Positions 1-64,000 of a stretch of DNA of 64,000 nt are shown one piece after another. The notes below the pieces were generated by a model. That model was not told where the DNA came from and did not search any database. It saw only the letters and a list, made by a program, of their open reading frames with translations. Origin of the DNA: Eledone cirrhosa (lineage: Eukaryota); NCBI GenBank assembly GCA_964016885.1, contig OZ024742.1, forward strand, positions 347,386,001 through 347,450,000, read 5' to 3'. The position numbers and the translations under genes are program-made. How positions within the stretch are numbered: position 1 is the stretch's first letter; every line of letters starts with the position of its first letter.

Positions 1-3000
1 GTGGTGGAGGTGTTGGCTATGTCAGTGGTGGTGGAGATGTTGGCTGTGGTGGAGGTGTTGGCTATGTCGGTGGTGGTGGAGATGTTGGCTGTGGTGGAGG
101 TGTTGGCTATGTCAGTGGTGGTGGTGGAGATGTTGGCTGTGTTGGAGGTGTTGGCTATGTCAGTGGTGGTGGTGGAGATGTTGGCTGTGGTGGAGGTGTT
201 GGCTATGTCAGTGGTGGTGGTGGAGATGTTGGCTGTGGTGGAGGTGTTGGCTATGTCAGTGGTGGTGGTGGAGATGTTGGCTGTGGTGGAGGTGTTGGCT
301 ATGTCGGTGGTGGTGGAGATGTTGGCTGTGGTGGAGGTGTTGGTTATGTCAGTGGTGGTGGAGATGTTGGCTGTGGTGGAGGTGTTGGCTATGTCAGTGG
401 TGGTGGTGGAGATGTTGGCTGTGGTGGAGGTGTTGGCTATGTCAGTAGTGGTGGAGATGTTGGCTGTGGTGGAGGTGTTGGCTATGTCAGTGGTGGTGGT
501 GGAGATGTTGGCTGTGGTGGAGGTGTTGGCTATGTCGGTGGTGGTGGAGATGTTGGCTGTGGTGGAGGTGTTGGCTATGTCAGTGGTGGTGGTGGAGATG
601 TTGGCTGTGGTGGAGGTGTTGGCTATGTCAGTGGTGGTGGTGGAGATGTTGGCTGTGGTGGAGGTGTTGGCTGTGGTGGTGGTGGTGGAGATGTTGGCTG
701 TGGTGGAGGTGTTGGCTATGTCAGTAGTGGTGGTGGAGATGTTGGCTGTGGTGGAGGTGTTGGCTATGTCAGTAGTGGTGGTGGAGATGTTGGCTGTGGT
801 GGAGGTGTTGGCTATGTCAGTGGTGGTGGTGGAGATGTTGGCTGTGGTGGAGGTGTTGGCTATGTCAGTGGTGGTGGTGGAGATGTTGGCTGTGGTGGAG
901 GTGTTGGCTGTGGTGGTGGTGGTGGAGATGTTGGCTGTGGTGGAGGTGTTGGCTATGTCAGTGGTGGTGGTGGAGATGTTGGCTGTGGTGGAGGTGTTGG
1001 CTGTGGTGGTGGTGGTGGAGATGTTGGCTGTGGTGGAGGTGTTGGCTATGTCAGTAGTGGTGGTGGAGATGTTGGCTGTGGTGGAGGTGTTGGCTATGTC
1101 AGTAGTGGTGGTGGAGATGTTGGCTGTGGTGGAGGTGTTGGCTATGTCAGTGGTGGTGGAGATGTTGGCTGTGGTGGAGGTGTTGGCTATGTCAGTGGTG
1201 GTGGTGGAGATGTTGGCTGTGGTGGAGGTGTTGGCTATGTCAGTGGTGGTGGAGATGTTGGCTGTGGTGGAGGTGTTGGCTATGTCAGTGGTGGTGGTGG
1301 TGGTGGAGATGTTGGCTGTGGAGGAGGTGTTGGCTATGTCAGTGGTGGTGGTGGAGATGTTGGCTGTGGTGGAGGTGTTAGCTATGTCAGTGGTGGTGGT
1401 GGAGATGTTGGCTGTGGTGGAGGTGTTGGCTATGTCAGTGGTGGTGGAGATGTTGGCTGTGGTGGAGGTGTTGGCTATGTCAGTGGTGGTGGTGGTGGTG
1501 GAGATGTTGGCTGTGGAGGAGGTGTTGGCTATGTCAGTGGTGGTGGTGGAGATGTTGGCTGTGGTGGAGGTGTTAGCTATGTCAATGGTGGTGGAGATGT
1601 TGGCTGTGGTGGAGGTGTTGGCTATGTCACTGGTGGTGGTGGAGATGTTGGCTGTGGTGGAGGTGTTGGCTATGTCAGTGGTGGTGGTGGAGATGTTGGC
1701 TGTGGTGGAGGTGTTGGCTATGTCAGTGGTGGTGGAGATGTTGGCTGTGGTGGAGGTGTTGGCTATGTCAGTGGTGGTGGTGGAGATGTTGGCTGTGGTG
1801 AAGGTGTTGGCTATGTCAGTGGTGATGGTGGAGATGTTGGCTGTGGTGGAGGTGTTGGCTATGTCAGTGGTGGTGGTGGAGATGTTGGCTGTGGTGGAGG
1901 TGTTGGCTATGTCAGTGGTGGTGGAGATGTTGGCTGTGGTGGAGGTGTTGGCTATGTCAGTGGTGGTGGTGGAGATGTTGGCTGTGGTGGAGGTGTTGGC
2001 TATGTCAGTGGTGGTGGTGGTGATGTTGGCTGTGGTGGAGGTGTTGGCTATGTCAGTGGTGGTGGTGGAGATGTTGGCTGTGGTGGAGGTGTTGGCTATG
2101 TCAGTGGTGGTGGTGGAGATGTTGGCTATATCAGTGATGGTGGAGATGTTGGCTGTGGTGGAGGTGTTGGCTATGTCAGTGGTGGTGGTGGTGGAGATGT
2201 TGGCTGTGGTGGAGGTGTTGGCTATGTCAGTGGTGGTGGTGGAGATGTTGGCTGTGGTGGAGGTGTTGGCTATGTCAGTGGTGGTGGTGGAGATGTTGGC
2301 TGTGGTGGAGGTGTTGGCTATGTCAGTGGTGGTGGTGGAGATGTTGGCTGTGGTGGAGGTGTTGGCTATGTCAGTGGTGGTGGAGATGTTGGCTGTGGTG
2401 GAGGTGTTGGCTATGTCAGTGGTGATGGAGATGTTGGCTGTGGTGGAGGTGTTGGCTATGTCAGTGGTGGTGGTGGAGATGTTGGCTGTGGTGGAGGTGT
2501 TGGCTATGTCAGTGGTGGTGGTGGAGATGTTGGCTGTGGTGGAGGTGTTGGCTATGTCAGTGGTGGTGGTGGAGATGTTGGCTGTGGTGGAGGTGTTGGC
2601 TATGTCAGTGGTGGTGGAGATGTTGGCTGTGGTGGAGGTGTTGGCTATGTCAGTGGTGATGGAGATGTTGGCTGTGGTGGAGGTGTTGGCTATGTCAGTG
2701 GTGGTGGTGGTGGAGATGTTGGCTGTGGTGGAGGTGTTGGCTATGTCAGTGGTGGTGGTGGAGATGTTGGCTGTGGTGGAGGTGTTGGCTATGTCAGTGG
2801 TGGTGGTGGAGATGTTGGCTGTGGTGGAGGTGTTGGCTATGTCAGTGGTGGTGGTGGAGATGTTGGCTGTGGTGGAGGTGTTGGCTATGTCAGTGGTGGT
2901 GGTGGAGATGTTGGCTGTGGTGGAGGTGTTGGCTATGTCAGTGGTGATGGAGATGTTGGCTGTGGTGGAGGTGTTGGCTATGTCAGTGGTGGTGGTGGAG

Positions 3001-6000
3001 ATGTTGGCTGTGGTGGAGGTGTTGGCTATCTCAGTGGTGGTGGTGGAGATGTTGGCTGTGGTGGAGGTGTTGGCTATGTCAGTGGTGGTGGAGATGTTGG
3101 CTGTGGTGGAGGTGTTGGCTATGTCAGTAGTGGTGGTGGAGATGTTGGCTGTGGTGGAGGTGTTGGCTATCTCAGTGGTGGTGGTGGAGATGTTGGCTGT
3201 GGTGGAGGTGTTGGCTATGTCAGTGGTGGTGGTGGAGATGTTGGCTGTAGTGGAGGTGTTGGCTATGTCAGTGGTGGTGGAGATGTTGGCTGTGGTGGAG
3301 GTGTTGGCTATGTCAGTGGTGTTGGTGGAGATGTTGGCTGTGGTGGAGGTGTTGGCTATGTCAGTAGTGGTGGTGGAGATGTTGGCTGTGGTGGAGGTGT
3401 TGGCTATGTCAGTGGTGGTGGTGGAGATGTTGGCTGTGTTGGAGGTGTTGGCTATGTCAGTGGTGGTGGTGGAGATGTTGGCTGTGGTGGAGGTGTTGGC
3501 TATGTCAGTGGTGGTGGTGGAGATGTTGGCTGTGGTGGAGGTGTTGGCTATGTCAGTGGTGGTGGTGGAGATGTTGGCTGTGGTGGTGGTGTTGGCTATG
3601 TCAGTGGTGGTGGTGGAGATGTTGGCTGTGGTGGAGGTGTTGGCTATGTCAGTGGTGGTGGGGATGTTGGCTGTGGTGGAGGTGTTGGCTATGTCAGTAG
3701 TGGTGGAGATGTTGGCTGTGGTGGAGGTGTTGGCTATGTCAGTGGTGGTGGAGATGTTGGCTGTGGTGGAGGTGTTGGCTATGTCAGTGGTGGTGGTGGA
3801 GATGTTGGCTGTGGTGGAGGTGTTGGCTATGTCAGTGGTGGTGGTGGAGATGTTGGCTGTGGTGGAGGTGTTGGCTATGTCAGTGGTGGTGGAGATGTTG
3901 GCTGTGGTGGAGGTGTTGGCTATGTCAGTGGTGGTGGAGATGTTGGCTGTGGTGGAGGTGTTGGCTACGTCAGTGGTGGTGGTGGAGATGTTGGCTGTGG
4001 TGGAGGTGTTGGCTATGTCAGTGGTGGTGGTGGTGGAGATGTTGGCTGTGGTGAAGGTGTTGGCTATGTCAGTAGTAGTGGTGGAGATGTTGGCTGTGGT
4101 GGAGGTGTTGGCTATGTCAGTGGTGGTGGAGATGTTGGCTGTGGTGGAGGTGTTGGCTATGTCAGTGGTGGTGGTGGAGATGTTGGCTGTGGTGGAGGTG
4201 TTGGCTATGTCAGTGGTGGTGGTGGAGATGTTGGCTGTGGTGGAGGTGTTGGCTATGTCAGTGGTGGTGGTGGAGATGTTGGCTGTGGTGGAGGTGTTGG
4301 CTATGTCAGTGGTGGTGGAGATGTTGGCTGTGGTGGAGGTGTTGGCTATGTCAGTGGTGGTGGAGATGTTGGCTGTGGTGGAGGTGTTGGCTATGTCGGT
4401 GGTGGTGGTGGAGATGTTGGCTGTGGTGGAGGTGTTGGCTATGTCAGTGGTGGTGGAGATGTTGGCTGTGGTGGAGGTGTTGGCTATGTCAGTGGTGGTG
4501 GTGGTGGAGATGTTGGCTGTGGTGGAGGTGTTGGCTATGTCAGTGGTGGTGGAGATGTTGGCTGTGGTGGAGGTGTTGGCTATGTCAGTGGTGGTGGAGA
4601 TGTTGGCTGTGGAGGAGGTGTTGGCTATGTCAGTGGTGGTGGTGGAGATGTTGGCTGTGGTGGAGGTGTTGGCTATGTCAGTAGTGGTGGTGGAGATGTT
4701 GGCTGTGGTGGAGGTGTTGGCTATGTCAGTGGTGGTGGTGGTGGAGATGTTGGCTGTTGTGGAGGTGTTGGCTATGTCAGTAGTGGTGGAGATGTTGGCT
4801 GTGGTGGAGGTGTTGGCTATGTCAGTGGTGGTGGAGATGTTGGCTGTGGTGGAGGTGTTGGCTATGTCAGTGGTGGTGGTGGAGATGTTGGCTGTGGTGG
4901 AGATGTTGGCTATGTCAGTGGTGGTGGTCGAGATGGTGGCTGTGGTGGAGGTGTTGGCTATGTCAGTGGTGGTGGTGGTGGAGATGTTGGCTGTTGTGGA
5001 GGTGTTGGCTATGTCAGTAGTGGTGGAGATGTTGGCTGTGGTGGAGGTGTTGGCTATGTCAGTGGTGGTGGTGGAGATGTTGGCTGTGGTGGAGATGTTG
5101 GCTATGTCAGTGGTGGTGGTCGAGATGGTGGCTGTGGTGGAGGTGTTGGCTATGTCAGTGGTGGTGGTGGTGGAGATGTTGGCTGTTGTGGAGGTGTTGG
5201 CTATGTCAGTAGTGGTGGAGATGTTGGCTGTGGTGGAGGTGTTGGCTATATCAGTAGTGGTGGTGGAGATGTTGGCTGTGGTGGAGGTGTTGGCTATGTC
5301 AGTAGTGGTGGAGATGTTGGCTGTGGTGGAGGTGTTGGCTATATCAGTGGTGGTGGTGGAGATGTTGGCTGTGGTGGAGGTGTTGGCTATGTCAGTGGTG
5401 GTGGTGGAGATGTTGGCTGTGGTGGAGGTGTTGGCTATGTCAGTGGTGGTGGTGATGTTGGCTGTGGTGGAGGTGTTGGCTATGTCAGTGGTGGTGGTGG
5501 TGGAGATGTTGGCTGTGGTGGAGGTGTTGGCTATGTCAGTGGTGGTGGTGGAGATGTTGGCTGTGGTGGAGGTGTTGGCTATGTCAGTGGTGGTGGTGGA
5601 GATGTTGGCTGTGGTGGAGGTGTTGGCTATGTCAGTGGTGGTGGTGGAGTTGTTGGCTGTGGTGGAGGTGTTGGCTATGTCAGTAGTCGTGGTGGAGATG
5701 TTGGCTGTGGTGGAGGTGTTGGCTATGTCGGTGGTGGTGGTGGAGATGTTGGCTGTGGTGGAGGTGTAGGCTATGTCAGTGGTGGTGGTGGAGATGTTGG
5801 CTGTGGTGGAGGTGTTGGCTATGTCAGTGATGGTGGTGGAGATGTTGGCTGTGGTGGAGGTGTTGGCTATGTCAGTGGTGGTGGTGGAGATGTTGGCTGT
5901 GGTGGAGGTGTTGGCTATGTCAGTGGTGGTGGAGATGTTGGCTGTGGTGGAGGTGTTGGCTATGTCAGTGGTGGTGGTGGAGATGTTGGCTGTGGTGGAG

Positions 6001-9000
6001 GTGTTGGCTATGTCAGTGGTGGTGGTGGAGATGTTGGCTGTGGTGGAGGTGTTGGCTATGTCAGTGGTGGTGGTGATGTTGGCTGTGGTGGAGGTGTTGG
6101 CTATGTCAGTGGTGGTGGTGGTGGAGATGTTGGCTGTGGTGGAGGTGTTGGCTATGTCAGTGGTGGTGGTGGAGATGTTGGCTGTGGTGGAGGTGTTGGC
6201 TATGTCAGTGGTGGTGGTGGAGATGTTGGCTGTGGTGGAGGTGTTGGCTATGTCAGTGGTGGTGGTGATGTTGGCTGTGGTGGAGGTGTTGGCTATGTCA
6301 GTGGTGGTGGTGGTGGAGATGTTGGCTGTGGTGGAGGTGTTGGCTATGTCAGTGGTGGTGGTGGAGATGTTGGCTGTGGTGGAGGTGTTGGCTATGTCAG
6401 TGGTGGTGGTGGAGATGTTGGCTGTGGTGGAGGTGTTGGCTATGTCAGTGGTGGTGGTAGAGATGTTGGCTGTGGTGGAGGTGTTGGCTATGTCAGTGAT
6501 GGTGGTGGAGATGTTGGCTGTGGTGGAGGTGTTGGCTATGTCAGTGGTGGTGGTGGAGATGTTGGCTGTGGTGGAGGTGTTGGCTATGTCAGTGGTGGTG
6601 GAGATGTTGGCTGTGGTGGAGGTGTTGGCTATGTCAGTGGTGGTGGTGGAGATGTTGGCTGTGGTGGAGGTGTTGGCTATGTCAGTGGTGGTGGTGGAGA
6701 TGTTGGCTGTGGTGGAGGTGTTGGCTATGTCAGTGGTGGTGGTGGAGATGTTGGCTGTGGTGGAGGTGTTGGCTATGTCAGTGGTGGTGGAGATGTTGGC
6801 TGTGGTGGAGGTGTTGGCTATGTCAGTGGTGGTGGAGATGTTGGCTGTGGTGGAGGTGTTGGCTATGTCGGTGGTGGTGGTGGAGATGTTGGCTGTGGTG
6901 GAGGTGTTGGCTATGTCAGTGGTGGTGGAGATGTTGGCTGTGGTGGAGGTGTTGGCTATGTCAGTGGTGGTGGAGATGTTGGCTGTGGTGGAGGTGTTGG
7001 CTATGTCAGTGGTGGTGGTGGAGATGTTGGCTGTGGTGGAGGTGTTGGCTATGTCAGTGGTGGTGGTGGAGATGTTGGCTGTGGTGGAGGTGTTGGCTAT
7101 GTCAGTGGTGGTGGTGGAGATATGGGCTGTGGTGGAGGTGTTGGCTATGTCAGTGGTGGTGGTGGAGATGTTGGCTGTGGTGGAGGTGTTGGCTATGTCA
7201 GTGGTGGTGGTGGAGATGTTGGCTGTAGTGGAGGTGTTGGCTATGTCAGTAGTGGTGGTGGAGATGTTGGCTGTAGTGGAGGTGTTGTCTATGTCAGTAG
7301 TGGTGGTGGAGATGTTGGCTGTGGTGGAGGTGTTGGCTATGTCAGTGGTGGTGGAGATGTTGGCTGTGGTGGAGGTGTTGGCTATGTCAGTGGTGGTGGT
7401 GGAGATGTTGGCTGTGGTGGAGGTGTTGGCTATGTCAGTGGTTGTGGTGGAGATGTTGGCTGTGGTGGAGGTGTTGGCTATGTCAGTGGTGGTGGTGGAG
7501 ATGTTGGCTGTGGTGGAGGTGTTGGCTATGTCAGTGGTGGTGGTGGAGATGTTGGCTGTGGTGGAGGTGTTGGCTAAGTCAGTGGTGGTGGTGGAGATGT
7601 TGGCTGTGGTGGAGGTGTTGGCTATGTCAGTGGTGGTGGAGATGTTGGCTGTGGTGGAGGTGTTGGCTATGTCAGTGGTGGTGGTGGAGATGTTGGCTGT
7701 GGTGGAGGTGTTAACTATGTCAGTGGTGCTGGAGATGTTGGCTGTGGTGGAGGTGTTGGCTATGTCAGTGGTGGTGGTGGAGATGTTGGCTGTGGTGGAG
7801 GTGTTGGCTATGTCAGTGGTGGTGGTGGAGATGTTGGCTGTGGTGGAGATGTTGGCTATGTCAGTGGTGGTGGTGGAGATGTTGGCTGTGGTGGAGATGT
7901 TGGCTATGTCAGTGGTGGTGGTCGAGATGGTGGCTGTGGTGGAGGTGTTGGCTATGTCAGTGGTGGTGGTGGTGGAGATGTTGGCTGTTGTGGAGGTGTT
8001 GGCTATGTCAGTAGTGGTGGAGATGTTGGCTGTGGTGGAGGTGTTGGCTATATCAGTAGTGGTGGTGGAGATGTTGGCTGTGGTGGAGGTGTTGGCTATG
8101 TCAGTAGTGGTGGAGATGTTGGCTGTGGTGGAGGTGTTGGCTATGTCAGTGGTGGTGGTGGAGATGTTGGCTGTGGTGGAGGTGTTGGCTATGTCAGTGG
8201 TGGTGGTGATGTTGGCTGTGGTGGAGGTGTTGGCTATGTCAGTGGTGGTGGTGGTGGAGATGTTGGCTGTTGTGGAGGTGTTGGCTATGTCAGTGGTGGT
8301 GGTGGAGATGTTGGCTGTGGTGGAGGTGTTGGCTATGTCAGTGGTGGTGGTGGAGTTGTTGGCTGTGGTGGAGGTGTTGGCTATGTCAGTGGTGGTGGAG
8401 ATGTTGGCTGTGGTGGAGGTGTTGGCTATGTCAGTGGTGGTGGAGATGTTGGCTGTGGTGGAGGTGTTGGCTATGTCAGTGGTGATGGAGATGTTGGCTG
8501 TGGTGGAGGTGTTGGCTATGTCAGTGGTGGTGGTGGAGATGTTGGCTGTGGTGGAGGTGTTGGCTATGTCAGTGGTGGTGGTGGAGATGTTGGCTGTGCT
8601 GGAGGTGTTGGCTATGTCAGTGATGGTGGTGGAGATGTTGGCTGTGGTGGAGGTGTTGGCTATGTCAGTGGTGGTGGTGGAGATGTTGGCTGTGGTGGAG
8701 GTGTTGGCTATGTCAGTGGTGGTGGAGATGTTGGCTGTGGTGGAGGTGTTGGCTATGTCAGTGGTGGTGGTGGAGATGTTGGCTGTGGTGGAGGTGTTGG
8801 CTATGTCAGTGGTGGTGGTGGAGATGTTGGCTGTGGTGGAGGTGTTGGCTATGTCAGTGGTGGTGGTGGAGATGTTGGCTGTGGTGGAGGTGTTGGCTAT
8901 GTCAGTGGTGGTGGAGATGTTGGCTGTGGTGGAGGTGTTGGCTATGTCAGTGGTGGTGGAGATGTTGGCTGTGGTGGAGGTGTTGGCTATGTCGGTGGTG

Positions 9001-12000
9001 GTGGTGGAGATGTTGGCTGTGGTGGAGGTGTTGGCTATGTCAGTGGTGGTGGAGATGTTGGCTGTGGTGGAGGTGTTGGCTATGTCAGTGGTGGTGGTGG
9101 AGATGTTGGCTGTGGTGGAGGTGTTGGCTATGTCAGTGGTGGTGGTGGAGATGTTGGCTGTGGTGGAGGTGTTGGCTATGTCAGTGGTGGTGGTGGAGAT
9201 GTTGGCTGTGGTGGAGGTGTTGGCTATGTCAGTGGTGGTGGAGATGTTGGCTGTGGTGGAGGTGTTGGCTATGTCAGTGGTGGTGGAGATGTTGGCTGTG
9301 GTGGAGGTGTTGGCTATGTCGGTGGTGGTGGTGGAGATGTTGGCTGTGGTGGAGGTGTTGGCTATGTCAGTGGTGGTGGTGGAGATGTTGGCTGTGCTGG
9401 AGGTGTTGGCTATGTCAGTGATGGTGGTGGAGATGTTGGCTGTGGTGGAGGTGTTGGCTATGTCAGTGGTGGTGGTGGAGATGTTGGCTGTGGTGGAGGT
9501 GTTGGCTATGTCAGTGGTGGTGGAGATGTTGGCTATGGTGGAGGTGTTGGCTATGTCAGTGGTGGTGGTGGAGATGTTGGCTGTGGTGGAGGTGTTGGCT
9601 ATGTCAGTGGTGGTGGTGGAGATGTTGGCTGTGGTGGAGGTGTTGGCTATGTCAGTGGTGGTGGTGGAGATGTTGGCTGTGGTGGAGGTGTTGGCTATGT
9701 CAGTGGTGGTGGAGATGTTGGCTGTGGTGGAGGTGTTGGCTATGTCAGTGGTGGTGGAGATGTTGGCTGTGGTGGAGGTGTTGGCTATGTCGGTGGTGGT
9801 GGTGGAGATGTTGGCTGTGGTGGAGGTGTTGGCTATGTCAGTGGTGGTGGAGATGTTGGCTGTGGTGGAGGTGTTGGCTATGTCAGTGGTGGTGGTGGAG
9901 ATGTTGGCTGTGGTGGAGGTGTTGGCTATGTCAGTGGTGGTGGTGGAGATGTTGGCTGTGGTGGAGGTGTTGGCTATGTCAGTGGTGGTGGTGGAGATGT
10001 TGGCTGTGGTGGAGGTGTTGGCTATGTCAGTGGTGGTGGTGGAGATGTTGGCTGTAGTGGAGGTGTTGGCTATGTCAGTAGTGGTGGTGGAGATGTTGGC
10101 TGTAGTGGAGGTGTTGGCTATGTCAGTAGTGGTGGTGGAGATGTTGGCTGTGGTGGAGGTGTTGGCTATGTCAGTGGTGGTGGAGATGTTGGCTGTGGTG
10201 GAGGTGTTGGCTATGTCAGTGGTGGTGGTGGAGATGTTGGCTGTGGTGGAGGTGTTGGCTATGTCAGTGGTGGTGGTGGAGATGTTGGCTGTGGTGGAGG
10301 TGTTGGCTATGTCAGTAGTGGTGGTGGAGATGTTGGCTGTGGTGGAGGTGTTGGCTATGTCAGTGGTGGTGGAGATGTTGGCTGTGGTGGAGGTGTTGGC
10401 TATATCAGTGGTTGTGGTGGAGATGTTGGCTGTGGTGGAGGTGTTGGCTATGTCAGTGGTGGTGGTGGAGATGTTGGCTGTGGTGGAGGTGTTGGCTATG
10501 TCAGTGGTGGTGGTGGAGATGTTGGCTGTGGTGGAGGTGTTGGCTATGTCAGTGGTGGTGGTGGAGATGTTGGCTGTGGTGGAGGTGTTGGCTATGTCAG
10601 TGGTGGTGGAGATGTTGGCTGTGGTGGAGGTATTGGCTATGTCGGTGGTGGTGGTGGAGATGTTGGCTGTGGTGGAGGTGTTGGCTATGTCAGTGGTGGT
10701 GGAGATGTTGGCTGTGGTGGAGGTGTTGGCTATGTCAGTGGTGGTGGAGATGTTGGCTGTGGTGGAGATGTTGGCTATGTCAGTGGTGGTGGTGGAGATG
10801 TTGGCTGTGGTGGAGGTGTTGGCTATGTCAGTGGTGGTGGTGGAGATGTTGGCTGTGGTGGAGGTGTTGGCTATGTCAGTGGTGGTGGTGGAGATATGGG
10901 CTGTGGTGGAGGTGTTGGCTATGTCAGTGGTGGTGGTGGAGATGTTGGCTGTGGTGGAGGTGTTGGCTATGTCAGTGGTGGTGGTGGAGATGTTGGCTGT
11001 AGTGGAGGTGTTGGCTATGTCAGTAGTGGTGGTGGAGATGTTGGCTGTAGTGGAGGTGTTGGCTATGTCAGTAGTGGTGGTGGAGATGTTGGCTGTGGTG
11101 GAGGTGTTGGCTATGTCAGTGGTGGTGGAGATGTTGGCTGTGGTGGAGGTGTTGGCTATGTCAGTGGTGGTGGTGGAGATGTTGGCTGTGGTGGAGGTGT
11201 TGGCTATGTCAGTGGTTGTGGTGGAGATGTTGGCTGTGGTGGAGGTGTTGGCTATGTCAGTGGTGGTGGTGGAGATGTTGGCTGTGGTGGAGGTGTTGGC
11301 TATGTCAGTAGTGGTGGTGGAGATGTTGGCTGTGGTGGAGGTGTTGGCTATGTCAGTGGTGGTGGAGATGTTGGCTGTGGTGGAGGTGTTGGCTATATCA
11401 GTGGTTGTGGTGGAGATGTTGGCTGTGGTGGAGGTGTTGGCTATGTCAGTGGTGGTGGTGGAGATGTTGGCTGTGGTGGAGGTGTTGGCTATGTCAGTGG
11501 TGGTGGTGGAGATGTTGGCTGTGGTGGAGGTGTTGGCTATGTCAGTGGTGGTGGTGGAGATGTTGGCTGTGGTGGAGGTGTTGGCTATGTCAGTGGTGGT
11601 GGAGATGTTGGCTGTGGTGGAGGTATTGGCTATGTCGGTGGTGGTGGTGGAGATGTTGGCTGTGGTGGAGGTGTTGGCTATGTCAGTGGTGGTGGAGATG
11701 TTGGCTGTGGTGGAGGTGTTGGCTATGTCAGTGGTGGTGGAGATGTTGGCTGTGGTGGAGGTGTTGGCTATGTCAGTGGTGGTGGTGGAGATGTTGGCTG
11801 TGGTGGAGGTGTTGGCTATGTCAGTGGTGGTGGTGGAGATGTTGGCTGTGGTGGAGGTGTTGGCTATGTCAGTGGTGGTGGTGGAGATATGGGCTGTGGT
11901 GGAGGTGTTGGCTATGTCAGTGGTGGTGGTGGAGATGTTGGCTGTAGTGGAGGTGTTGGCTATGTCAGTAGTGGTGGTGGAGATGTTGGCTGTAGTGGAG

Positions 12001-17673: not shown

Positions 17674-17751
17674 CACTTTGTATACCAAATGTTTCATCTA
17701 AGATTCCTTCATACGTTAACTGGAAAGACAGAGGTGTCACAAAATCGACAT
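17674..17751 (-). CDS. VPS33B: VPS33B-like coding exon (6th visible): (D)VDFVTPLSFQLTYEGILDETFGIQS(G)
   Basis: 78 bp; ctttcag acceptor and gtaagt donor; G+AT junction gives Asp, completing the Sec1/Munc18 motif DRDVDFVTP..QLTYEG.LDE.F. Confidence 0.93.
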
Positions 17752-17998: not shown

Positions 17999-18388
17999 CT
18001 ATCTTTAACAGTGTAAATACAGTGTGTATCTTTAACAGTGTAAATACAGTGTCTATCTTTAACAGTGTAAATACAGTGTCTATATTTAACAGTGTTAATA
18101 CAGTGTCTATCTTTAACAGTGTTAATACAGTGTAAATCTTTAACAGTGTAAATACAGTGTCTATCTTTAACAGTGTTAATACAGTGTCTATCTTTAACAG
18201 TGTAAATACAGTGTCTATCTTTAACAAACAGTGTAAATATAGTGTTATCTTTAACAGTGTAAATACAGTGTTATCTTTAACAGTGTAAATACATTGTCTA
18301 TCTTTAACAGTGTTAATGCAGTGTTATCTTTAACAAACAGTGTAAATACAGTGTTATCTTTAACAGTGTAAATAAAGTGTAAATATTT
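17999..18388. repeat. 27-bp intronic minisatellite ATCTTTAACAGTGTAAATACAGTGTCT, about 14 copies
   Basis: Directly visible tandem array; explains the LLKIDTVFT repeat in the 17883..18227 ORF; abuts the donor of the 18391-18484 exon. Confidence 0.95.
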
Positions 18389-18390
18389 AC

Positions 18391-21113: not shown

Positions 21114-21167
21114 CATAAATAGTATCAAAAAATAAATAATATCAAAATCTCATAGATTCGATATTAT

Positions 21168-25373: not shown

Positions 25374-25375
25374 GA

Positions 25376-25625: not shown

Positions 25626-25683
25626 TTTATTCACAACCACAAGGAAGAAAGCCAAACATCTTAATCACTAAGTCATCTTCCTG

Positions 25684-52900: not shown

Positions 52901-55900
52901 CTCATCCCATCACATCTCTATAAAACAGTCTTCGCTCACCCCATCACATCTCTATATCACAGTCTTCTCTCACCCCATCACATCTCTATATCAGTCTTCT
53001 CTCATCCCATCACATCTCTATAACACAGTGTTCTCTCATCCCATCTCATCTCTATATCAGTCTTCTCTCACCCCATCACATCTCTATATCACAGTGTTCT
53101 CTCATCCCATCTCATCTCTATATCAGTCTTCTCTCACCCCATCACATATCTATATCACAGTCTTCTCTCATCCCATCTCATCTCTATAAAACAGTCTTCT
53201 CTCACCCCATCACATCTCTATATCACAGTCTTCTCTCACCCCATCACATCTCTATATCAGTCTTCTCTCACCCCATCACATCTCTATATCACAGTCTTCT
53301 CTCATCCCATCACCTCTCTATAACAGTCTTCTCTCACCCCATCACATCTCTATATCACAGTCTTCTCTCATCCCATCACATCTCTATATCACAGTCTTCT
53401 CTCACCCCATCACATCTCTATATCAGTCTTCTCTCACCCCATCACATCTCTATATCACAGTCTTCTCTCATCCCATCACCTCTCTATAACAGTCTTCTCT
53501 CACCCCATCACATCTCTATATCACAGTCTTCTCTCATCCCATCACATCTCCATATCACAGTCGTCTCTCACCCCATCACATCTCTATGTAAGTCTTCTCT
53601 CGTCCAATCACATCTCTATAACACAGTCTTCTCTCACCTCATCACATCTCTATATCACAGTCTTCTCTCACTCCATCACATCTCTATATTAGTCTTCTCT
53701 CACCCCATCACATCTCTATATCACAGTCTTCTCTCACCCCATCACATCTCTATATCACAGTCTTCTCTCACCTCATCACATCTCTATAACACAGTCTTCT
53801 CTCACCCCATCACATCTCTATAACACAGTCTTCTTTCACCCCATCACATCTATATAACACAGTCTTCTTTCATCCCATCACATCTCTATATCACAGTCTT
53901 CTCTCACCCCATCACATCTCTATATCACAGTCTTCTCTCACCCCATCACATCTCTATATTAGTCTTCTCTCATCCCATCACATCTCTATAACACAGTCTT
54001 CTCTCACCCCATCACATCTCTATAACACAGTCTTCTCTCATCCCATCACATCTCTATAACAAAGTCTTCTCTCACCTCATCACATCTCTATAAAAGTCTT
54101 CTCTCACCTCATCACATCTCTATAAAAGTCTTCTTTCACCCCATCATATCTCTATATCACAGTCTTCTCTCACCCCATCACATCTCTTCTATATCAGTCT
54201 TCTCTCACCCCATCACATCTCTATATCACAGTCTTCTCTCATCCAATCACATCTCTATATCAGTCTTCTCTCACCCCATCACATCTCTATATCAGTCTTC
54301 TCTCACCCCATCACATCTCTATATCAGTCTTCTCTCACCCCATCACATCTCTATATCACAGTCTTCTCTCACCCCATCACATCTCTATAACACAGTCTTC
54401 TCTCATCCCATCTCATCTCTATATCAGTCTTCTGTCACCCCATCACATCTCTATATCACAGTCTTCTCTCACCCCATCACATCTCTATATCAGTCTTCTC
54501 TCACCCCATCACATCTCTATATCACAGTCTTCTCTCATCCCATCACATCTCTATATCACAGTCTTCTCTCACCTCATCACATCTCTATAAAAGTCTTCTC
54601 TCACCCCATCACATCTCTATATCAGTCTTCTCTCACCCCATCACATCTCTATATCACAGTCTTCTCTCACCCCATCACATCTCTATAACACAGTCTTCTC
54701 TCATCCCATCTCATCTCTATATCAGTCTTCTCTCACCCCATCACATATCTATATCACAGTCTTCTCTGATCCCATCTCATCTCTATAAAACAGTCTTCTC
54801 TCACCCCATCACATCTCTATATCACAGTCTTCTCTCACCCCATCACATCTCTATATCAGTCTTCTTTCACCCCATCACATCTCTATAACACAGTCTTCTC
54901 TCATCCCATCTCATCTCTATATCAGTCTTCTCTCACCCCATCACATCTCTATATCACAGTCTTCTCTCACCCCATCACATCTCTATAACACAGTCTTCTC
55001 TCATCCCATCTCATCTCTATATCAGTCTTCTCTCACCCCATCACATATCTATATCACAGTCTTCTCTCATCCCATCTCATCTCTATAAAACAGTCTTCTC
55101 TCACCCCATCACATCTCTATATCACAGTCTTCTCTCACCCCATCACATCTCTATATCAGTCTTCTCTCACCCCATCACATCTCTATATCACAGTCTTCTC
55201 TCATCCCATCACATCTCTATATCACAGTCTTCTCTCACCTCATCACATATCTATATCACAGTCTTCTCTCATCCCATCTCATCTCTATATCAGTCTTCTC
55301 TCACCCCACCACATCTCTATATCACAGTCTTCTCTCACCCCATCACATCTCTATGTAAGTCTTCTCTCATCCCTTCACATCTCTATAACACAGTCTTCTC
55401 TCACCTCATCACATCTCTATATCACAGTCTTCTCTCACTCCATCACATCTCTATATTAGTCTTCTCTCACCCCATCACATCTCTATATCACAGTCTTCTC
55501 TCACCCCATCACATCTCTATATCACATTCTTCTCTCACCTCATCACATCTCTATAACACAGTCTTCTCTCACCCCATCACATCTCTATAACACAGTCTTC
55601 TTTCATCCCATCACATCTCTATATCACAGTCTTCTCTCACCCCATCACATCTCTATATCACAGTCTTCTCTCATCCCATCTCATCTCTATATCAGTCTTC
55701 TCTCACCCCATCATATCTCTATATCACAGTCTTCTCTCACCCCATCACCTCTCTATAATACAGTCTTCTCTCACCCCATCATATCTCTATAACACAGTCT
55801 TCTCTCATCCCATCACATCTCTATAACACAGACTTCTCTCACCTCATCACATCTCTATATCACAGTGTTCTCTCACCCCATCACATTTCTATAACACAGA

Positions 55901-58900
55901 CTTCTCTCACCTCATCACATCTCTATATCACAGTCTTCTGTCACCCCATAACATCTCTATATCACAGTCTTCTCTCACTCCATCACATCTCTATAACACA
56001 GTATTCTCTCACCTCATCACATCTCTATATCACAGTCTTCTCTCACCCCATCACATCTCCATATCACAGTCTTCTCTCACTCCATCACATCTCTATGTAA
56101 GTCTTCTCTCACCCCATCACATCTCTATAACACAGACTTCTCTCACCTCATCACATCTCTATATCAGTTTTCTGTCACCCCATAACATCACTATATCACA
56201 GTCTTCTCTCACTCCATCACATCTCTATAACACAGTCTTCTCTCACCTCATCACATCTCTATAACACAGTCTTCTCTCACCCCATCACATCTCTATATCA
56301 CAGTCTTCTCTCACCCCATAACATCTCTATATCACAGTCTTCTCTCACTCCATCACATCTCTATATCAGTTTTCTCTCACCCCATCACATCTATATATCA
56401 CAGTCTTCTCTCATCCCATCTCATCTCTATATCAGTCATCTCTCACCCCATCACATCTCTATATCAGTCTGCTCTCATCCCATCACATCTCTATAAAACA
56501 GTCTTCGCTCACCCCATCACATCTCTATATCACAGTCTTCACTCACCCCATCACATCTCAATATCAGTCTTCACTCATCCCATCACATCTCTATATCACA
56601 GTCTTCTCTCACCCCATCACATCTTTATAACACAGTCTTCTCTCATCCCATCTCATCTCTATATCAGTCTTCTCTCACCCCATCACATCTCTATATCACA
56701 GTGTTCTCTCATCCCATCTCATCTCTATATCAGTCATCTCTCACCCCATCACATCTCTATATCAGTCTTCTCTCATCCCATCACATCTCTATAAAACAGT
56801 CTTCGCTCACCCCATCACATCTCTATAACACAGTCTTCTCTCATCCCATCTCATCTCTATATCAGTCTTCTGTCACCCCATCACATCTCTATATCACAGT
56901 CTTCTCTCACCCCATCACATCTCTATATCAGTCTTCTCTCACCCCATCACATCTCTATATCACAGTCTTCTCTCATCCCATCACATCTCTATATCACAGT
57001 CTTCTCTCACCTCATCACATCTCTATAAAAGTCTTCTCTCACCCCATCACATCTCTATATCAGTCTTCTCTCACCCCATCACATCTCTATATCACAGTCT
57101 TCTCTCACCCCATCACATCTCTATAACACAGTCTTCTCTCATCCCATCTCATCTCTATATCAGTCTTCTCTCACCCCATCACATATCTATATCACAGTCT
57201 TCTCTGATCCCATCTCATCTCTATAAAACAGTCTTCTCTCACCCCATCACATCTCTATATCACAGTCTTCTCTCACCCCATCACATCTCTATATCAGTCT
57301 TCTTTCACCCCATCACATCTCTATAACACAGTCTTCTCTCATCCCATCTCATCTCTATATCAGTCTTCTCTCACCCCATCACATCTCTATATCACAGTCT
57401 TCTCTCACCCCATCACATCTCTATAACACAGTCTTCTCTCATCCCATCTCATCTCTATATCAGTCTTCTCTCACCCCATCACATATCTATATCACAGTCT
57501 TCTCTCATCCCATCTCATCTCTATAAAACAGTCTTCTCTCACCCCATCACATCTCTATATCACAGTCTTCTCTCACCCCATCACATCTCTATATCAGTCT
57601 TCTCTCACCCCATCACATCTCTATATCACAGTCTTCTCTCATCCCATCACATCTCTATATCACAGTCTTCTCTCACCTCATCACATATCTATATCACAGT
57701 CTTCTCTCATCCCATCTCATCTCTATATCAGTCTTCTCTCACCCCACCACATCTCTATATCACAGTCTTCTCTCACCCCATCACATCTCTATGTAAGTCT
57801 TCTCTCATCCCTTCACATCTCTATAACACAGTCTTCTCTCACCTCATCACATCTCTATATCACAGTCTTCTCTCACTCCATCACATCTCTATATTAGTCT
57901 TCTCTCACCCCATCACATCTCTATATCACAGTCTTCTCTCACCCCATCACATCTCTATATCACATTCTTCTCTCACCTCATCACATCTCTATAACACAGT
58001 CTTCTCTCACCCCATCACATCTCTATAACACAGTCTTCTTTCATCCCATCACATCTCTATATCACAGTCTTCTCTCACCCCATCACATCTCTATATCACA
58101 GTCTTCTCTCATCCCATCTCATCTCTATATCAGTCTTCTCTCACCCCATCATATCTCTATATCACAGTCTTCTCTCACCCCATCACCTCTCTATAATACA
58201 GTCTTCTCTCACCCCATCATATCTCTATAACACAGTCTTCTCTCATCCCATCACATCTCTATAACACAGACTTCTCTCACCTCATCACATCTCTATATCA
58301 CAGTGTTCTCTCACCCCATCACATTTCTATAACACAGACTTCTCTCACCTCATCACATCTCTATATCACAGTCTTCTGTCACCCCATAACATCTCTATAT
58401 CACAGTCTTCTCTCACTCCATCACATCTCTATAACACAGTATTCTCTCACCTCATCACATCTCTATATCACAGTCTTCTCTCACCCCATCACATCTCCAT
58501 ATCACAGTCTTCTCTCACTCCATCACATCTCTATGTAAGTCTTCTCTCACCCCATCACATCTCTATAACACAGACTTCTCTCACCTCATCACATCTCTAT
58601 ATCAGTTTTCTGTCACCCCATAACATCACTATATCACAGTCTTCTCTCACTCCATCACATCTCTATAACACAGTCTTCTCTCACCTCATCACATCTCTAT
58701 AACACAGTCTTCTCTCACCCCATCACATCTCTATATCACAGTCTTCTCTCACCCCATAACATCTCTATATCACAGTCTTCTCTCACTCCATCACATCTCT
58801 ATATCAGTTTTCTCTCACCCCATCACATCTATATATCACAGTCTTCTCTCATCCCATCTCATCTCTATATCAGTCATCTCTCACCCCATCACATCTCTAT

Positions 58901-61900
58901 ATCAGTCTGCTCTCATCCCATCACATCTCTATAAAACAGTCTTCGCTCACCCCATCACATCTCTATATCACAGTCTTCACTCACCCCATCACATCTCAAT
59001 ATCAGTCTTCACTCATCCCATCACATCTCTATATCACAGTCTTCTCTCACCCCATCACATCTTTATAACACAGTCTTCTCTCATCCCATCTCATCTCTAT
59101 ATCAGTCTTCTCTCACCCCATCACATCTCTATATCACAGTGTTCTCTCATCCCATCTCATCTCTATATCAGTCATCTCTCACCCCATCACATCTCTATAT
59201 CAGTCTTCTCTCATCCCATCACATCTCTATAAAACAGTCTTCGCTCACCCCATCACATCTCTATATCACAGTCTTCACTCACCCCATCACATCTCAATAT
59301 CAGTCTTCTCTCATCCCATCACATCTCTATATCACAGACTTCTCTCACCCCATCACATCTCTATAACACAGTCTTCTCTCATCCCATCTCATCTCTATAT
59401 CAGTCTTCTCTCACCCCATTACATCTCTATATCACAGTGTTCTCTCATCCCATCTCATCTCTATATCAGTCTTCTCTCACCCCATCACATCTCTATATCA
59501 CAGTCTTCTCTCACCCCATCACATCTCCATATCACAGTCTTCTCTCACCCCATCACATCTCTATATCACAGTCTTCTCTCATCCCATCACATCTCTATAA
59601 CAGTCTTCTCTCACCCCATCACATCTCTATATCATAGTCTTCTCTCATCCCATCACATGTCTATATCACAGTCTTCTCTCATCCCATCTCATCTCTATAT
59701 CAGTCTTCTCTCACCCCATCACATCTCTATATCACAGTCTTCTCTCATCCCATCACATCTCCATATCACAGTCTTCTCTCACCCCATCACATCTCTATGT
59801 AAGTCTTCTCTCATCCCATCACATCTCTATAACACAGTCTTCTCTCACCTCATCACATCTCTATATCACAGTCTTCTCTCACTCCATCACATCTCTATAT
59901 TAGTCTTCTCTCACCCCATCACATCTCTATATCACAGTCTTCTCTCACCCCATCACATCTCTATATCACAGTCTTCTCTCACCTCATCACATCTCTATAA
60001 CACAGTCTTCTCTCACCCCATCACATCTCTATAACACAGTCTTCTCTCACCCCATCACATCTCTATATCACAGTCTTCTCTCACCCCATCACATCTCTAT
60101 ATCACAGTCTTCTCTCACCCCCACCACATCTCTATATCACAGTCTTCTCTCACCTCATCACATCAATATAACACAGTCTTCTCTCACCCCATCACATCTC
60201 TATAACACAGTCTTCTCTCACCCCATCACATCTATATAACACAGTCTTCTTTCATCCCATCACATCTCTATATCACAGTCCTCTCTCACCCCATCACATC
60301 TCTATATCACAGTCTTCTCTCATCCAATCTCATCTCTATATCAGTCTTCTCTCACCCCATCACATCTCTATAACACAGTCTTCTCTCACCCCATCACATC
60401 TCTATATCACAGTCTTCTCTCACCTCATCACATCTCTATTACACAGTCTTCTCTCACCCCATCACATCTCTATAACACAGTCTTCTCTCACCCCATCACA
60501 TCTATATAACACAGTCTTCTTTCATCCCATCACATCTCTATATCACAGTCTTCTCTCACCCCATCACATCTCTATATCACAGTCTTCTCTCATCCCATCT
60601 CATCTCTGTATCAGTCTTCTCTCACCCCATCACATCTCTATAACACAGTCTTCTCTCACCCCATCACATCTCTATATCACAGTCTTCTCTCACCCCATCA
60701 CATCTCTATATCACAGTCTTCTCTCATCCCATCTCATCTCTATATCAGTCTTCTCTCACCCCATCACATCTCTATAACACAGTCTTCTCTCACCCCATCA
60801 CATCTCTATATCACAGTCTTCTCTCACCCCATCACATCTCTATATCAGTCTTCTCTCATCCCATCACATCTCTATAAAACAGTCTTCGCTCACCCCATCA
60901 CATCTCTATATCACAGTCTTCTCTCACCCCATCACATCTCTATATCAGTCTTCTCTCATCCCATCACATCTCTATATCACAGTCTTCTCTCACCCCATCA
61001 CATCTCTATATCAGTCTTCTCTCACCCCATCACATATCTATATCACAGTCTTCTCTCATCCCATCTCATCTCTATAAAACAGTCTTCTCTCACCCCATCA
61101 CATCTCTATATCACAGTCTTCTCTCACCCCATCACATCTCTATATCAGTCTTCTCTCACCCCATCACATCTCTATATCACAGTCTTCTCTCATCCCATCA
61201 CCTCTCTATAACAGTCTTCTCTCACCCCATCACATCTCTATATCACAGTCTTCTCTCATCCCATCACATCTCTATATCACAGTCTTCTCTAATCCCATCT
61301 CATCTCTATATCAGTCTTCTCTCACCCCATCACATCTCTATATCACAGTCTTCTCTCATCCCATCACATCTCCATATCACAGTCGTCTCTCACCCCATCA
61401 CATCTCTATGTAAGTCTTCTCTCGTCCCATCACATCTCTATAACACAGTCTACTCTCACCTCATCACATCTCTATATCACAGTCTTCTCTCACTCCATCA
61501 CATCTCTATATTAGTCTTCTCTCACCCCATCACATCTCTATATCACAGTCTTCTCTCACCCCATCACATCTCTATATCACAGTCTTCTCTCACCTCATCA
61601 CATCTCTATAACACAGTCTTCTCTCACCCCATCACATCTCTATAACACAGTCTTCTCTCACCCCATCACATCTATATAACACAGTCTTCTTTCATCCCAT
61701 CACATCTCTATATCACAGTCTTCTCTCACCCCATCACATCTCTATATCACAGTCTTCTCTCATCCCATCACATCTCCATATCACAGTCGTCTCTCACCCC
61801 ATCACATCTCTATGTAAGTCTTCTCTCGTCCAATCACATCTCTATAACACAGTCTTCTCTCACATCATTACATCTCTATATCACAGTCTTCTCTCACTCC

Positions 61901-64000
61901 ATCACATCTCTATATTAGTCTTCTCTCACCCCATCACATCTCTATATCACAGTCTTCTCTCACCCCATCACATCTCTATATCACAGTCTTCTCTCACCTC
62001 ATCACATCTCTATAACACAGTCTTCTCTCACCCCATCACATCTCTATAACACAGTCTTCTCTCACCCCATCACATCTATATAACACAGTCTTCTTTCATC
62101 CCATCACATCTCTATATCACAGTCTTCTCTCACCCCATCACATCTCTATATCACAGTCTTCTCTCATCCCATCTCATCTCTATATCAGTCTTCTCTCATC
62201 CCATCACATCTCTATAACACAGTCTTCTCTCACCCCATCACATCTCTATAACACAGTCTTCTCTCATCCCATCACATCTCTATAACAAAGTCTTCTCTCA
62301 CCTCATCACATGTCTATAAAAGTCTTCTCTCACCTCATCACATCTCTATAAAAGTCTTCTCTCACCCCATCATATCTCTATATCACAGTCTTCTCTCACC
62401 CCATCACATCTCTTCTATATCAGTCTTCTCTCACCCCATCACATCTCTATATCAAAGTCTTCTCTCATCCAATCACATCTCTATATCAGTCTTCTCTCAC
62501 CCCATCACATCTCTATATCAGTCTTCTCTCACCCCATCACATCTCTATATCAGTCTTCTCTCACCCCATCTCATCTCTATATCACAGTCTTCTCTCACCC
62601 CATCACATCTCTATAACACAGTCTTCTCTCATCCCATCTCATCTCTATATCAGTCTTCTCTCACCCCATCACATCTCTATATCACAGTCTTCTCTCATCC
62701 CATCACATCTCTATATCACAGTCTTCTCTCACCTCATCACATCTCTATAAAAGTCTTCTCTCATCCCATCACATCTCTATATCAGTCTTCTCTCACCCCA
62801 TCACATCTCTATATCACAGTCTTCTCTCACCCCATCACATCTCTATAACACAGTCTTCTCTCATCCCATCTCATCTCTATATCAGTCTTCTCTCACCCCA
62901 TCACATATCTATATCACAGTCTTCTCTCATCCCATCTCATCTCTATAAAACAGTCTTCTCTCACCCCATCACATCTCTATATCACAGTCTTCTCTCACCC
63001 CATCACATCTCTATATCAGTCTTCTATCACCCCATCACATCTCTATAACACAGTCTTCTCTCATCCCATCTCATCTCTATATCAGTCTTCTCTCACCCCA
63101 TCACATCTCTATATCACAGTCTTCTCTCACCCCATCACATCTCTATAACACAGTCTTCTCTCATCCCATCTCATCTCTATATCAGTCTTCTCTCACCCCA
63201 TCACATATCTATATCACAGTCTTCTCTCATCCCATCTCATCTCTATAAAACAGTCTTCTCTCACCCCATCACATCTCTATATCACAGTCTTCTCTCACCC
63301 CATCACATCTCTATATCAGTCTTCTCTCACCCCATCACATCTCTATATCACAGTCTTCTCTCATCCCATCACATCTCTATATCACAGTCTTCTCTCACCT
63401 CATCACATATCTATATCACAGTCTTCTCTCATCCCATCTCATCTCTATATCAGTCTTCTCTCACCCCACCACATCTCTATATCACAGTCTTCTCTCACCC
63501 CATCACATCTCTATGTAAGTCTTCTCTCATCCCTTCACATCTCTATAACACAGTCTTCTCTCACCTCATCACATCTCTATATCACAGTCTTCTCTCACTC
63601 CATCACATCTATATATTAGTCTTCTCTCACCCCATCACATCTCTATATCACAGTCTTCTCTCACCCCATCACATCTCTATATCACATTCTTCTCTCACCT
63701 CATCACATCTCTATAACACAGTCTTCTCTCACCCCATCACATCTCTATAACACAGTCTTCTTTCATCCCATCACATCTCTATATCACAGTCTTCTCTCAC
63801 CCCATCACATCTCTATATCACAGTCTTCTCTCATCCCATCTCATCTCTATATCAGTCTTCTCTCACCCCATCATATCTCTATATCACAGTCTTCTCTCAC
63901 CCCATCACCTCTCTATAATACAGTCTTCTCTCACCCCATCATATCTCTATAACACAGTCTTCTCTCATCCCATCACATCTCTATAACACAGACTTCTCTC
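25960..64000. repeat. Giant tandem satellite 2, 34-bp monomer AGTCTTCTCTCACCCCATCACATCTCTATATCAC with a frequent 32-bp variant, over 1100 copies, truncated by window end
   Basis: Directly visible for 38 kb with no unique insertion seen; recurring variant blocks indicate higher-order duplications. Confidence 0.99.

What the first reader, a model, noticed from the sequence alone, without database searches (positions are those of the whole stretch)
1..64000. Conserved trafficking gene (VPS33B-like) whose exon island is flanked by two satellite-filled giant introns
Seen: six intact, phase-compatible internal exons (601 coding nt) within 7 kb, with no start exon or downstream exon visible. The flanking sequence is more than 38 kb and more than 17 kb of pure satellite. 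Known: VPS33B is a Sec1/Munc18 protein much longer than the ~200 aa seen here, and satellite-filled giant introns are best described for Drosophila Y-linked fertility genes, which need special factors for transcription and splicing. Inference: Pol II must transcribe two different homogeneous satellite arrays to make this probably broadly expressed mRNA, which suggests satellite-driven intron gigantism in a housekeeping gene.
Basis: partly seen in the sequence, partly recalled or inferred. Interest (0 to 1): 0.75.

Follow-up and report, generated by a model that had tools for sequence, protein, structure and literature searches.

The report
Octopod VPS33B intron swollen by minisatellite
An intact octopus-group trafficking gene (VPS33B) has a 171,000-base intron that is 99% one 34-base repeat found nowhere else in the genome and present only about once in a related species; the repeat likely grew in place from a scrap of a jumping gene, a joined transcript shows the exons on either side spliced together correctly, and similar private repeat blocks crowd this whole chromosome region, so this is likely tolerated local overgrowth rather than a special device.

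Summary
Real, and now anatomically resolved. The six exons (601 nt) are exons 3-8 of a complete 19-exon VPS33B gene (600 aa, 91.5% identical to Octopus bimaculoides VPS33B) spanning 254 kb with no assembly gap. Only one flanking intron is giant: intron 2 is 171,087 bp, 99% a 34/32-bp array of about 5,080 units; intron 8 is 19.8 kb (48-bp array); intron 16 holds a third array. All exact copies of the 34- and 48-bp units in the 3-Gb genome lie at this locus. A public contig from the same species joins exons 1-2-3 exactly; a related species has about one unit at this spot. The unit matches a 33-nt piece of the resident LINE and abuts a decayed LINE remnant. It is not special to this gene: 16 of 40 probes in distal C3 are wholly tandem array (15 different units) against 5 of 60 genome-wide, and other housekeeping genes carry intronic arrays. 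The scan noted the same pattern in several other genes of this genome. Closest in print: chicken 'sequence stuttering', here about 60-100 times longer; not Drosophila-type megabase intron gigantism.

The parts
1..17200 (.). 48-bp (45/48/51) minisatellite array, about 403 units, 19.2 kb in all (starts about 2 kb left of the window); fills intron 8; degenerate (GGT)n at its far edge
   Evidence: all 278 exact 41-mer matches in the genome are here
17674..17751 (-). VPS33B exon 8 (78 nt); next exon lies 19,845 bp on, 2.2 kb left of the window
   Evidence: Pfam Sec1 E 5.2e-05
18391..18484 (-). VPS33B exon 7 (94 nt)
20133..20237 (-). VPS33B exon 6 (105 nt)
22022..22162 (-). VPS33B exon 5 (141 nt)
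23995..24112 (-). VPS33B exon 4 (118 nt)
24745..24809 (-). VPS33B exon 3 (65 nt); joined to exon 2 (window position 195,977-195,897) in a contig of run X5
25660..25961 (-). decayed 3' fragment of the resident RT/endonuclease LINE, in the gene's sense, directly abutting the array
   Evidence: 62-68% identical best hits; hits in 30 loci incl. itself; alignment to LINE copies; family has RVT_1 and Exo_endo_phos
25962..64000 (.). left 38 kb of the 169,794-bp array of 34/32-bp units (about 5,080 units, 390 distinct monomers) filling intron 2
   Evidence: all 980 exact 34-mers and all 957 exact 21-mers in the genome are in this array
17999..18380 (.). small 27-bp x14 array in intron 7
21166..21543 (.). 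small 71-bp x5 array, unit shared with dispersed repeats
23194..23463 (.). small 45-bp x6 array behind a SINE-like repeat; the same unit family forms a 30-kb-scale array in a myosin locus on C6

Best explanation
This is an intact VPS33B gene whose intron 2 holds a private 170-kb minisatellite that likely grew in place, recently and without function, from a 34-base duplicated piece of a dead LINE retrotransposon, and whose exons 1-3 are found correctly spliced. Steps: (1, shown) a LINE 3' fragment sits in intron 2 and one segment of it matches the repeat unit; (2, shown) a relative has about one unit between exon 2 and the same LINE remnant; (3, inferred) in this lineage the unit was multiplied about 5,000-fold by repeated kilobase-scale tandem duplication (unequal exchange or repair slippage), leaving domains of variants and exact duplicate blocks up to 6 kb; (4, inferred) Pol II reads through, and the intron is removed in one step by ordinary exon definition, which the array does not disturb because on the sense strand it has no AATAAA/ATTAAA, no pyrimidine-tract acceptor and no YAG|GT ratchet site; (5, shown as pattern, cause inferred) the gene is hit three times because it lies in a chromosome domain where such arrays fill roughly 40% of probes.
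For: Complete ORF, 18 of 18 introns GT-AG, 91.5% identity to O. bimaculoides VPS33B. Spliced contig exon 1|2|3 with 0 mismatches in both 30-nt loose ends. Organism B: one 371-nt contig at single-copy depth (21.5; 15-23 elsewhere) runs exon 2 - 136 nt - 39 nt of unit - LINE flank matching window 25883-25912 with 2 mismatches; it is the only one of its records laid on the stretch, against 56 for the same-species run X1. Unit privacy: 980 of 980 and 278 of 278 exact matches local. LINE origin: best copy 28 of 30 aligned bases plus a 3-nt gap; mean and maximum score over 27 LINE copies reached by 0 of 100 shuffles; best placement at the same motif in 15 of 27 copies. An 80-bp array in the VPS33A-like paralog derives from the same LINE segment (88% over 99 nt). 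Array structure: local variant domains, longest exact duplicate 5,957 bp, mean 3.9% difference from the majority unit. Depth on the unit up to 45,257 against 2-10 on single-copy contigs, the order expected for thousands of copies (rough only). Signals in the array, sense strand: 0 A[AT]TAAA, 0 acceptors, 0 YAGGT. Region: 16 of 40 5-kb probes in C3:333-378.5 Mb wholly array vs 5 of 60 systematic samples, Fisher p 0.0003.
Against: The spliced contig is one record (depth 6.5) from another sample whose library type is not on record and whose array length is unknown; intron 8 splicing was not tested. One relative cannot polarise gain against loss. In a blind blastn the 34-bp dimer hit dispersed DNA only weakly (1 locus, E 0.039; 38 of 410 shuffled queries also hit at least one locus), so the LINE origin rests on a targeted, after-the-fact test and on adjacency. 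The 56-bp unit of intron 16 is not private (864 genome matches, 104 here) and no source was found for it. The sense strand carries 3,747 donor-like RGTRAG sites, so the array is not free of splice signals. 171 kb is far above the largest gap (62.7 kb) among 21 other housekeeping loci with several exon hits, so this intron is in the upper tail even here. Run X6 (organism C) holds the unit at low depth without exon 2; unexplained.
Confidence: 0.78

Rival explanations
1. The array is real but has been put to use or has forced an adaptation: its thousands of donor-like sites bind U1 snRNP and protect the long transcript, or dedicated RNA-binding factors are needed, as for Drosophila Y-loop genes.
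For: 3,747 RGTRAG sites on the sense strand and none on the antisense strand; GTGAGA is a true donor at exons 12 and 18 of this gene. 0 of 6 intronic arrays examined have A[AT]TAAA on the host sense strand. An array contig is present in the transcript-like run X5 at depth 58.8.
Against: The relative manages with about one unit; each array has a different unit and two arrays in the VPS33A-like gene lie in opposite orientations; a short unit lacks a given hexamer by chance most of the time, so 0 of 6 is weak; the X5 array contig could be genomic carry-over and has no strand.
Confidence: 0.12
2. The array exists but the assembler inflated it or joined two haplotypes, so the true intron is much shorter than 171 kb.
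For: 41% of the array is covered by exact duplicates of 2 kb or more; variant content shifts near window positions 101 kb and 126-131 kb; no long read was available to lay.
Against: No gap; no exact repeat reaches 6 kb and the similarity matrix shows no doubled half; several markers run across the shifts; short-read depth on the unit is thousands of times single-copy depth; a short-read contig runs over the 25961 junction (records 8 and 16), though X1/X2 may be the assembled individual.
Confidence: 0.07
3. The gene is expressed in two pieces and joined by trans-splicing, or the spliced contig comes from an allele or processed copy without the array, so the array need not be transcribed.
Against: Exons are colinear on one strand with ordinary cis signals; the genome search found no intronless copy; array sequence is present in X5.
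Confidence: 0.03

Closest known systems
'Sequence stuttering' in introns of chicken dot-chromosome genes (Hron et al. 2026, PMC12954441; abstract and first parts of two Results sections and Discussion read)
   Same: Locally born repeats of tens of bases expand inside single introns, leave exons intact, differ between related species, hit several introns of a gene and cluster in particular chromosome regions.
   Different: Their example intron is 1.6-2.9 kb, this one 171 kb; their regions are GC-rich and lack interspersed repeats, this one is AT-rich and full of SINE/LINE copies, one of which seeds the unit; no exon-derived units seen here; length variation within the species could not be tested.
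Drosophila Y-loop genes kl-3, kl-5 (intron gigantism; PMC6508621 and PMC11207136, passages read)
   Same: An intact gene whose intron is almost wholly tandem repeat and would have to be transcribed through it.
   Different: Megabases of simple satellites, Y-linked, spermatocyte programme of about 90 h needing Blanks and Heph; here 171 kb, a private 34-bp unit, a trafficking gene, arrays 79% of the locus, size not conserved in a relative.
Transposon-derived satellites (Vondrak et al. 2019, PMC7004042; abstract and outline seen)
   Same: A short repeat that stems from a retrotransposon occasionally expands into a long array, mainly in favourable chromosome regions.
   Different: There the seeds are tandem arrays already inside LTR elements of a plant and expand in primary constrictions; here the seed is a coding-region segment of a decayed non-LTR element inside an intron of an expressed gene.
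VPS33B (Sec1/Munc18 family, Pfam PF00995)
   Same: 600-aa product 91.5% and 87.5% identical to proteins named VPS33B in O. bimaculoides and Argonauta hians.
   Different: Nothing unusual in the protein; only the intron sizes.

Membership tests
VPS33B (Sec1/Munc18) | Full-length similarity to annotated VPS33B and Sec1 domain | tested here: met
   91.5% over 601 columns to P0003, 87.5% to P0001; 3 of 6 window exons hit PF00995, each below the curated cut-off because short
VPS33B (Sec1/Munc18) | Intact reading frame, canonical splice sites, single locus | tested here: met
   1,803 nt, one terminal stop, 18 GT-AG introns; 19 of 21 genome hits at this locus, 2 at a 35-46% paralog on C25
VPS33B (Sec1/Munc18) | Broad expression | not testable with these tools
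   One spliced contig in one run; 'ubiquitously expressed' is from the listing of a paper on the human gene (PMC12904430)
Drosophila-type intron gigantism | Megabase introns of simple satellite making up over 99% of the locus | tested here: not met
   Largest intron 171 kb; arrays 79% of the 254-kb locus; 34-56-bp units
Drosophila-type intron gigantism | Intronic repeat is transcribed | tested here: inconclusive
   64-nt array contig at depth 58.8 in X5; strand and DNA carry-over unknown
Drosophila-type intron gigantism | Dedicated RNA-binding factors required; germline-specific timing | not testable with these tools
   needs experiments
Drosophila-type intron gigantism | Large intron size kept between species while sequence turns over | tested here: not met
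   Organism B bridges the array site with about one unit in a 371-nt contig
Sequence stuttering (Hron 2026) | Locally born repeat of tens to hundreds of bases confined to one intron, exons intact | tested here: met
   (34- and 48-bp units; the 56-bp unit is not private)
Sequence stuttering (Hron 2026) | Independent expansion in related species; regional clustering | tested here: met
   one relative; 16 of 40 vs 5 of 60 probes
Sequence stuttering (Hron 2026) | Extensive length variation within the species | not testable with these tools
   no long reads of other individuals were offered
Sequence stuttering (Hron 2026) | Occasional exon-derived units; GC-rich region without interspersed repeats | tested here: not met
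   tblastn hits in the arrays only at E 0.99 or worse; island GC 28-43% with abundant SINE/LINE copies
Transposon-derived tandem repeat | Unit homologous to a transposon segment and array contiguous with a remnant of that element | tested here: met
   blind blastn of the unit alone is weak

The most novel reading that the evidence does not exclude
This octopod lineage has a chromosome-domain-wide instability in which scraps of resident LINEs and SINEs seed private minisatellites that expand thousands-fold within the time two related species diverge by a few percent, stretching housekeeping introns past 100 kb; which seeds survive in introns is filtered by RNA processing (no poly(A) signal, no acceptor, donor-rich sense strand), giving a natural, many-times-replicated experiment on how ordinary cells transcribe and splice giant repeat introns without a special programme.
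Probability: 0.3. Interest if true: 0.75.

Novelty: new variant of a known kind. Interest (0 to 1): 0.5.

Why it matters
It gives a dated before-and-after case of a giant repeat intron: about one unit in one species, about 5,000 in another, with the seed identified and correct splicing seen. How giant repeat introns arise and whether they need special machinery is open even in Drosophila (PMC6508621, passages). A trafficking gene that tolerates a 130-fold intron expansion (1.3 kb without the array) with no ratchet sites argues that ordinary machinery can suffice up to this size. It also warns that cephalopod gene models and genome-size accounts from short reads miss such arrays (about 7% of sampled chromosome bases lie in arrays of 5 kb or more). 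For VPS33B itself nothing new follows.

Tried and rejected
Orphan or duplicated fragment: rejected, all 19 exons are colinear on C3. Dispersed or centromeric satellite family: rejected for the 34- and 48-bp units, not for the 56-bp unit. Mucin-like giant exon: the 48-bp array gives a 5,997-codon Thr-rich open frame on the sense strand, but it has no Met, none of 144 single substitutions in that frame makes a stop, length variants are almost all multiples of 3, and the array holds 5 GT dinucleotides and no donor consensus: a by-product of a triplet-derived unit. Recursive splicing inside the array: no YAG|GT there. Doubled haplotype: no matching half in the similarity matrix. (whole island, four DNA-like runs) was swamped by SINE copies and told little beyond identity of the island and one junction-crossing contig. 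One search listed no holder on record as RNA; that blank is no evidence either way. Run X6 (organism C): unit present at low depth, exon 2 absent, mixed identities; trace DNA of the focal species or a smaller array cannot be told apart; left open. My first gene model had three exon borders off by a few bases; corrected. The Fisher test used 8 of 20 through a miscount; the right count is 9 of 20. Blind blastn of 41 array rows against masked samples gave clear dispersed-repeat sources for some units (45-, 48-, 68-, 80-, 143-bp) and none for many. Literature searches for such arrays in cephalopods (listings only) and passages of PMC13652810 gave nothing on it; subscription journals are mostly outside the library and no supplements were read. 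No folding or complex prediction was run, as the protein is ordinary.
Full report
Observation. The window is 17.2 kb of a 48-bp repeat, an 8.8-kb island and 38 kb of a 34-bp repeat. The island holds six minus-strand exons with AG/GT borders, 601 nt in all. One exon found three proteins among 27 candidates, two named VPS33B from octopods; 3 of 6 exons hit Pfam Sec1 weakly. The animal is therefore an octopod by protein similarity.

The whole gene. The window is G000:C3:347,386,001-347,450,000. O. bimaculoides VPS33B gave 21 matches, 19 at this locus and 2 at a distant paralog on C25. From 200 kb of neighbouring DNA the gene has 19 coding exons, 1,803 nt, 600 aa, one terminal stop, 18 GT-AG introns and 91.5% identity to the O. 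bimaculoides protein. It spans 253.7 kb with no N in 264 kb. Median intron 1.5 kb. Intron 2 is 171,087 bp with a 169,794-bp array; intron 8 is 19,845 bp with a 19.2-kb array; intron 16 is 39,397 bp with a 12.6-kb array of a 56-bp unit plus LINEs and microsatellites. So one flanking intron is giant and the other is merely large.

Is it expressed and spliced? Run X5 (same species label, another sample, library not on record) has a 196-nt contig that covers exon 2 exactly and goes on into exon 3 on one side and exon 1 on the other; both 30-nt loose ends match with 0 mismatches. No intronless copy is in the assembly, so this is most simply cDNA. It is one contig at depth 6.5, and that animal's array length is unknown. 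X5 also has a 64-nt array contig at depth 58.8; strand and DNA carry-over cannot be told.

Is the array real? There is no gap; variants form local domains; the longest exact duplicate is 5,957 bp; no half is doubled. Summed contig depth on the unit reaches 45,257 in X1 against 2-10 on single-copy contigs; the assembled array supplies 3,200-5,000 near-matching 31-mers per full unit position, so the order agrees, though the tool warns that this depth is no copy number and X1 may be the assembled animal. Exact length needs long reads.

Where did it come from? All 980 exact 34-mers and all 957 exact 21-mers in 3.0 Gb lie in this array; all 278 exact 41-mers of the 48-bp unit lie in intron 8. These are private minisatellites. 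The 56-bp unit is not: 104 of 864 matches are here. The 300 bp next to the big array are a decayed LINE 3' end (hits in 30 loci) of a family with reverse transcriptase and endonuclease domains (the label RTE-like is my recall). The unit aligns to the segment of that LINE that codes ERRLRWYGHVM in the reference copy: 28 of 30 bases with a 3-nt gap in the best of 27 copies, 0 of 100 shuffles reaching the mean or the maximum, and 15 of 27 best placements at that motif. This test was targeted; a blind blastn was weak. Two 80-bp arrays in the VPS33A-like gene come from the same LINE segment, so the segment has seeded arrays at least twice. The 48-bp unit grades into degenerate (GGT)n at its edge and probably grew from a triplet microsatellite (inference).

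When? Organism B differs at 5 of 81 bases in exon 2. One contig of 371 nt at single-copy depth runs from exon 2 through 136 nt, 39 nt of the unit and into sequence matching window 25883-25912 with 2 mismatches; it is the only record of that run laid on the stretch. B thus has about one unit where this genome has about 5,080. Units differ by 3.9% from the majority on average. Recent gain here is the simpler reading; one relative cannot prove the direction, and run X6 is ambiguous.

How is it tolerated? On the sense strand the 170-kb array has no AATAAA or ATTAAA, no pyrimidine-tract acceptor and no YAG|GT site, but 3,747 donor-like RGTRAG sites; the 48-bp array has almost no GT at all. Neither can form a cryptic exon or end the transcript by itself, and recursive splicing has no foothold in the array, so one-step removal by exon definition is the likely route (inference). 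At recalled Pol II rates of 2-4 kb per minute the intron would add about one hour. Whether the donor-like sites help (U1 protection, recalled) or harm is untested.

Is it special? No. In 60 evenly spaced 10-kb samples over 19 large contigs (2.53 of 3.0 Gb), 5 hold arrays of 5 kb or more, 7.1% of bases; 1 of 19 earlier samples did too and extends over at least 210 kb. Around the gene, 9 of 20 5-kb probes in C3:345.3-349.5 Mb and 7 of 20 further probes in 333-378.5 Mb are wholly array, with 15 different units; 16 of 40 against 5 of 60, p 0.0003. Among 21 CCT, Sec1 and adaptin loci with several exon hits the largest gap was 62.7 kb; of 6 genes whose larger gaps were read, 2 hold arrays over 4 kb (chosen for size, so biased). 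Of 20 probes in gaps of 5 myosin loci, 5 are wholly array (that the C3 hits are one gene was not checked). VPS33B's intron is thus in the upper tail of a common, regionally dense process. Earlier notes of this scan report the same in VPS15, LHPP, SRA1, a polycystin, unc79 and APLF of this genome; they are unchecked and not counted as support.

Comparison. It works like chicken sequence stuttering (PMC12954441; abstract and parts of Results and Discussion read) at about 60-100 times the length of their example, with a transposon-derived seed as in PMC7004042 (abstract). It fails the size and conservation features of Drosophila intron gigantism (PMC6508621, PMC11207136; passages). Five searches (listings only) showed no paper describing this in cephalopods; the library lacks most subscription journals and supplements were not read.

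Verdict. Real; a well-documented, probably neutral runaway minisatellite in an intact gene; new variant of a known kind. The single locus is of middling interest (0.5); the genome-wide process, if RNA-processing filters on it can be shown, would deserve more.

Noticed in passing
window 17264 down to 726 bases left of the window, minus strand: 5,997-codon Thr-rich open frame without Met inside the 48-bp array; plus-strand frames of 3,810 (Val-rich) and 3,207 (Gly-rich) codons. Likely to be mis-called as mucin or glycine-rich genes by annotation pipelines.
   Followed up: yes
window 20679-21113: Inverted repeat with 197-nt arms, 98% complementary, 41-nt spacer, built from two opposed SINE-like copies in intron 5; would form a long hairpin in the pre-mRNA, a candidate RNA-editing substrate.
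   Followed up: no
G000:C25:8,953,960-8,966,687 (L135-L136): VPS33A-like paralog carries two arrays (4.3 and 7.0 kb) of an 80-bp unit in opposite orientations, from the same LINE segment as the 34-bp unit.
   Followed up: partly
G000:C6:99.966-99.998 Mb (L151-L153) and window 23194-23463: The 45-bp SINE-associated unit stands 6 times in the window and fills probes over about 30 kb in a myosin locus.
   Followed up: partly
L015:1773-1811: The 39-bp spacer between exon 2 and the array draws summed depth up to 76,910 in X1 and none in X4, X5, X6: it resembles another abundant repeat of this species that was not among my samples.
   Followed up: partly
G000:C3:347,338,711-347,351,333 (L017-L018): 56-bp array in intron 16; 760 further exact matches lie elsewhere in the genome, places not listed.
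   Followed up: partly
G000:C2:250.87 Mb, C4:130.2-130.4 Mb, C18:9.90-10.11 Mb: A 7-bp repeat shared by C2 and C4 (on C4 in both orientations over 200 kb) and a 16-bp array of at least 210 kb on C18; candidates for centromeric satellites.
   Followed up: no
G000:C3:346.5-349.5 Mb and 358-378.5 Mb: Mosaic of many different long minisatellites; the inner dense block could mark a former chromosome end in this very large chromosome (untested).
   Followed up: partly
L020:108-3955 (intron 16): Near full-length LINE with endonuclease, reverse transcriptase and a PHD-like hit, broken by frameshifts.
   Followed up: partly
P0003 residues 113-120: The O. bimaculoides model lacks the first residues of exon 5 that this genome and Argonauta have, possibly an annotation or assembly error there.
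   Followed up: no
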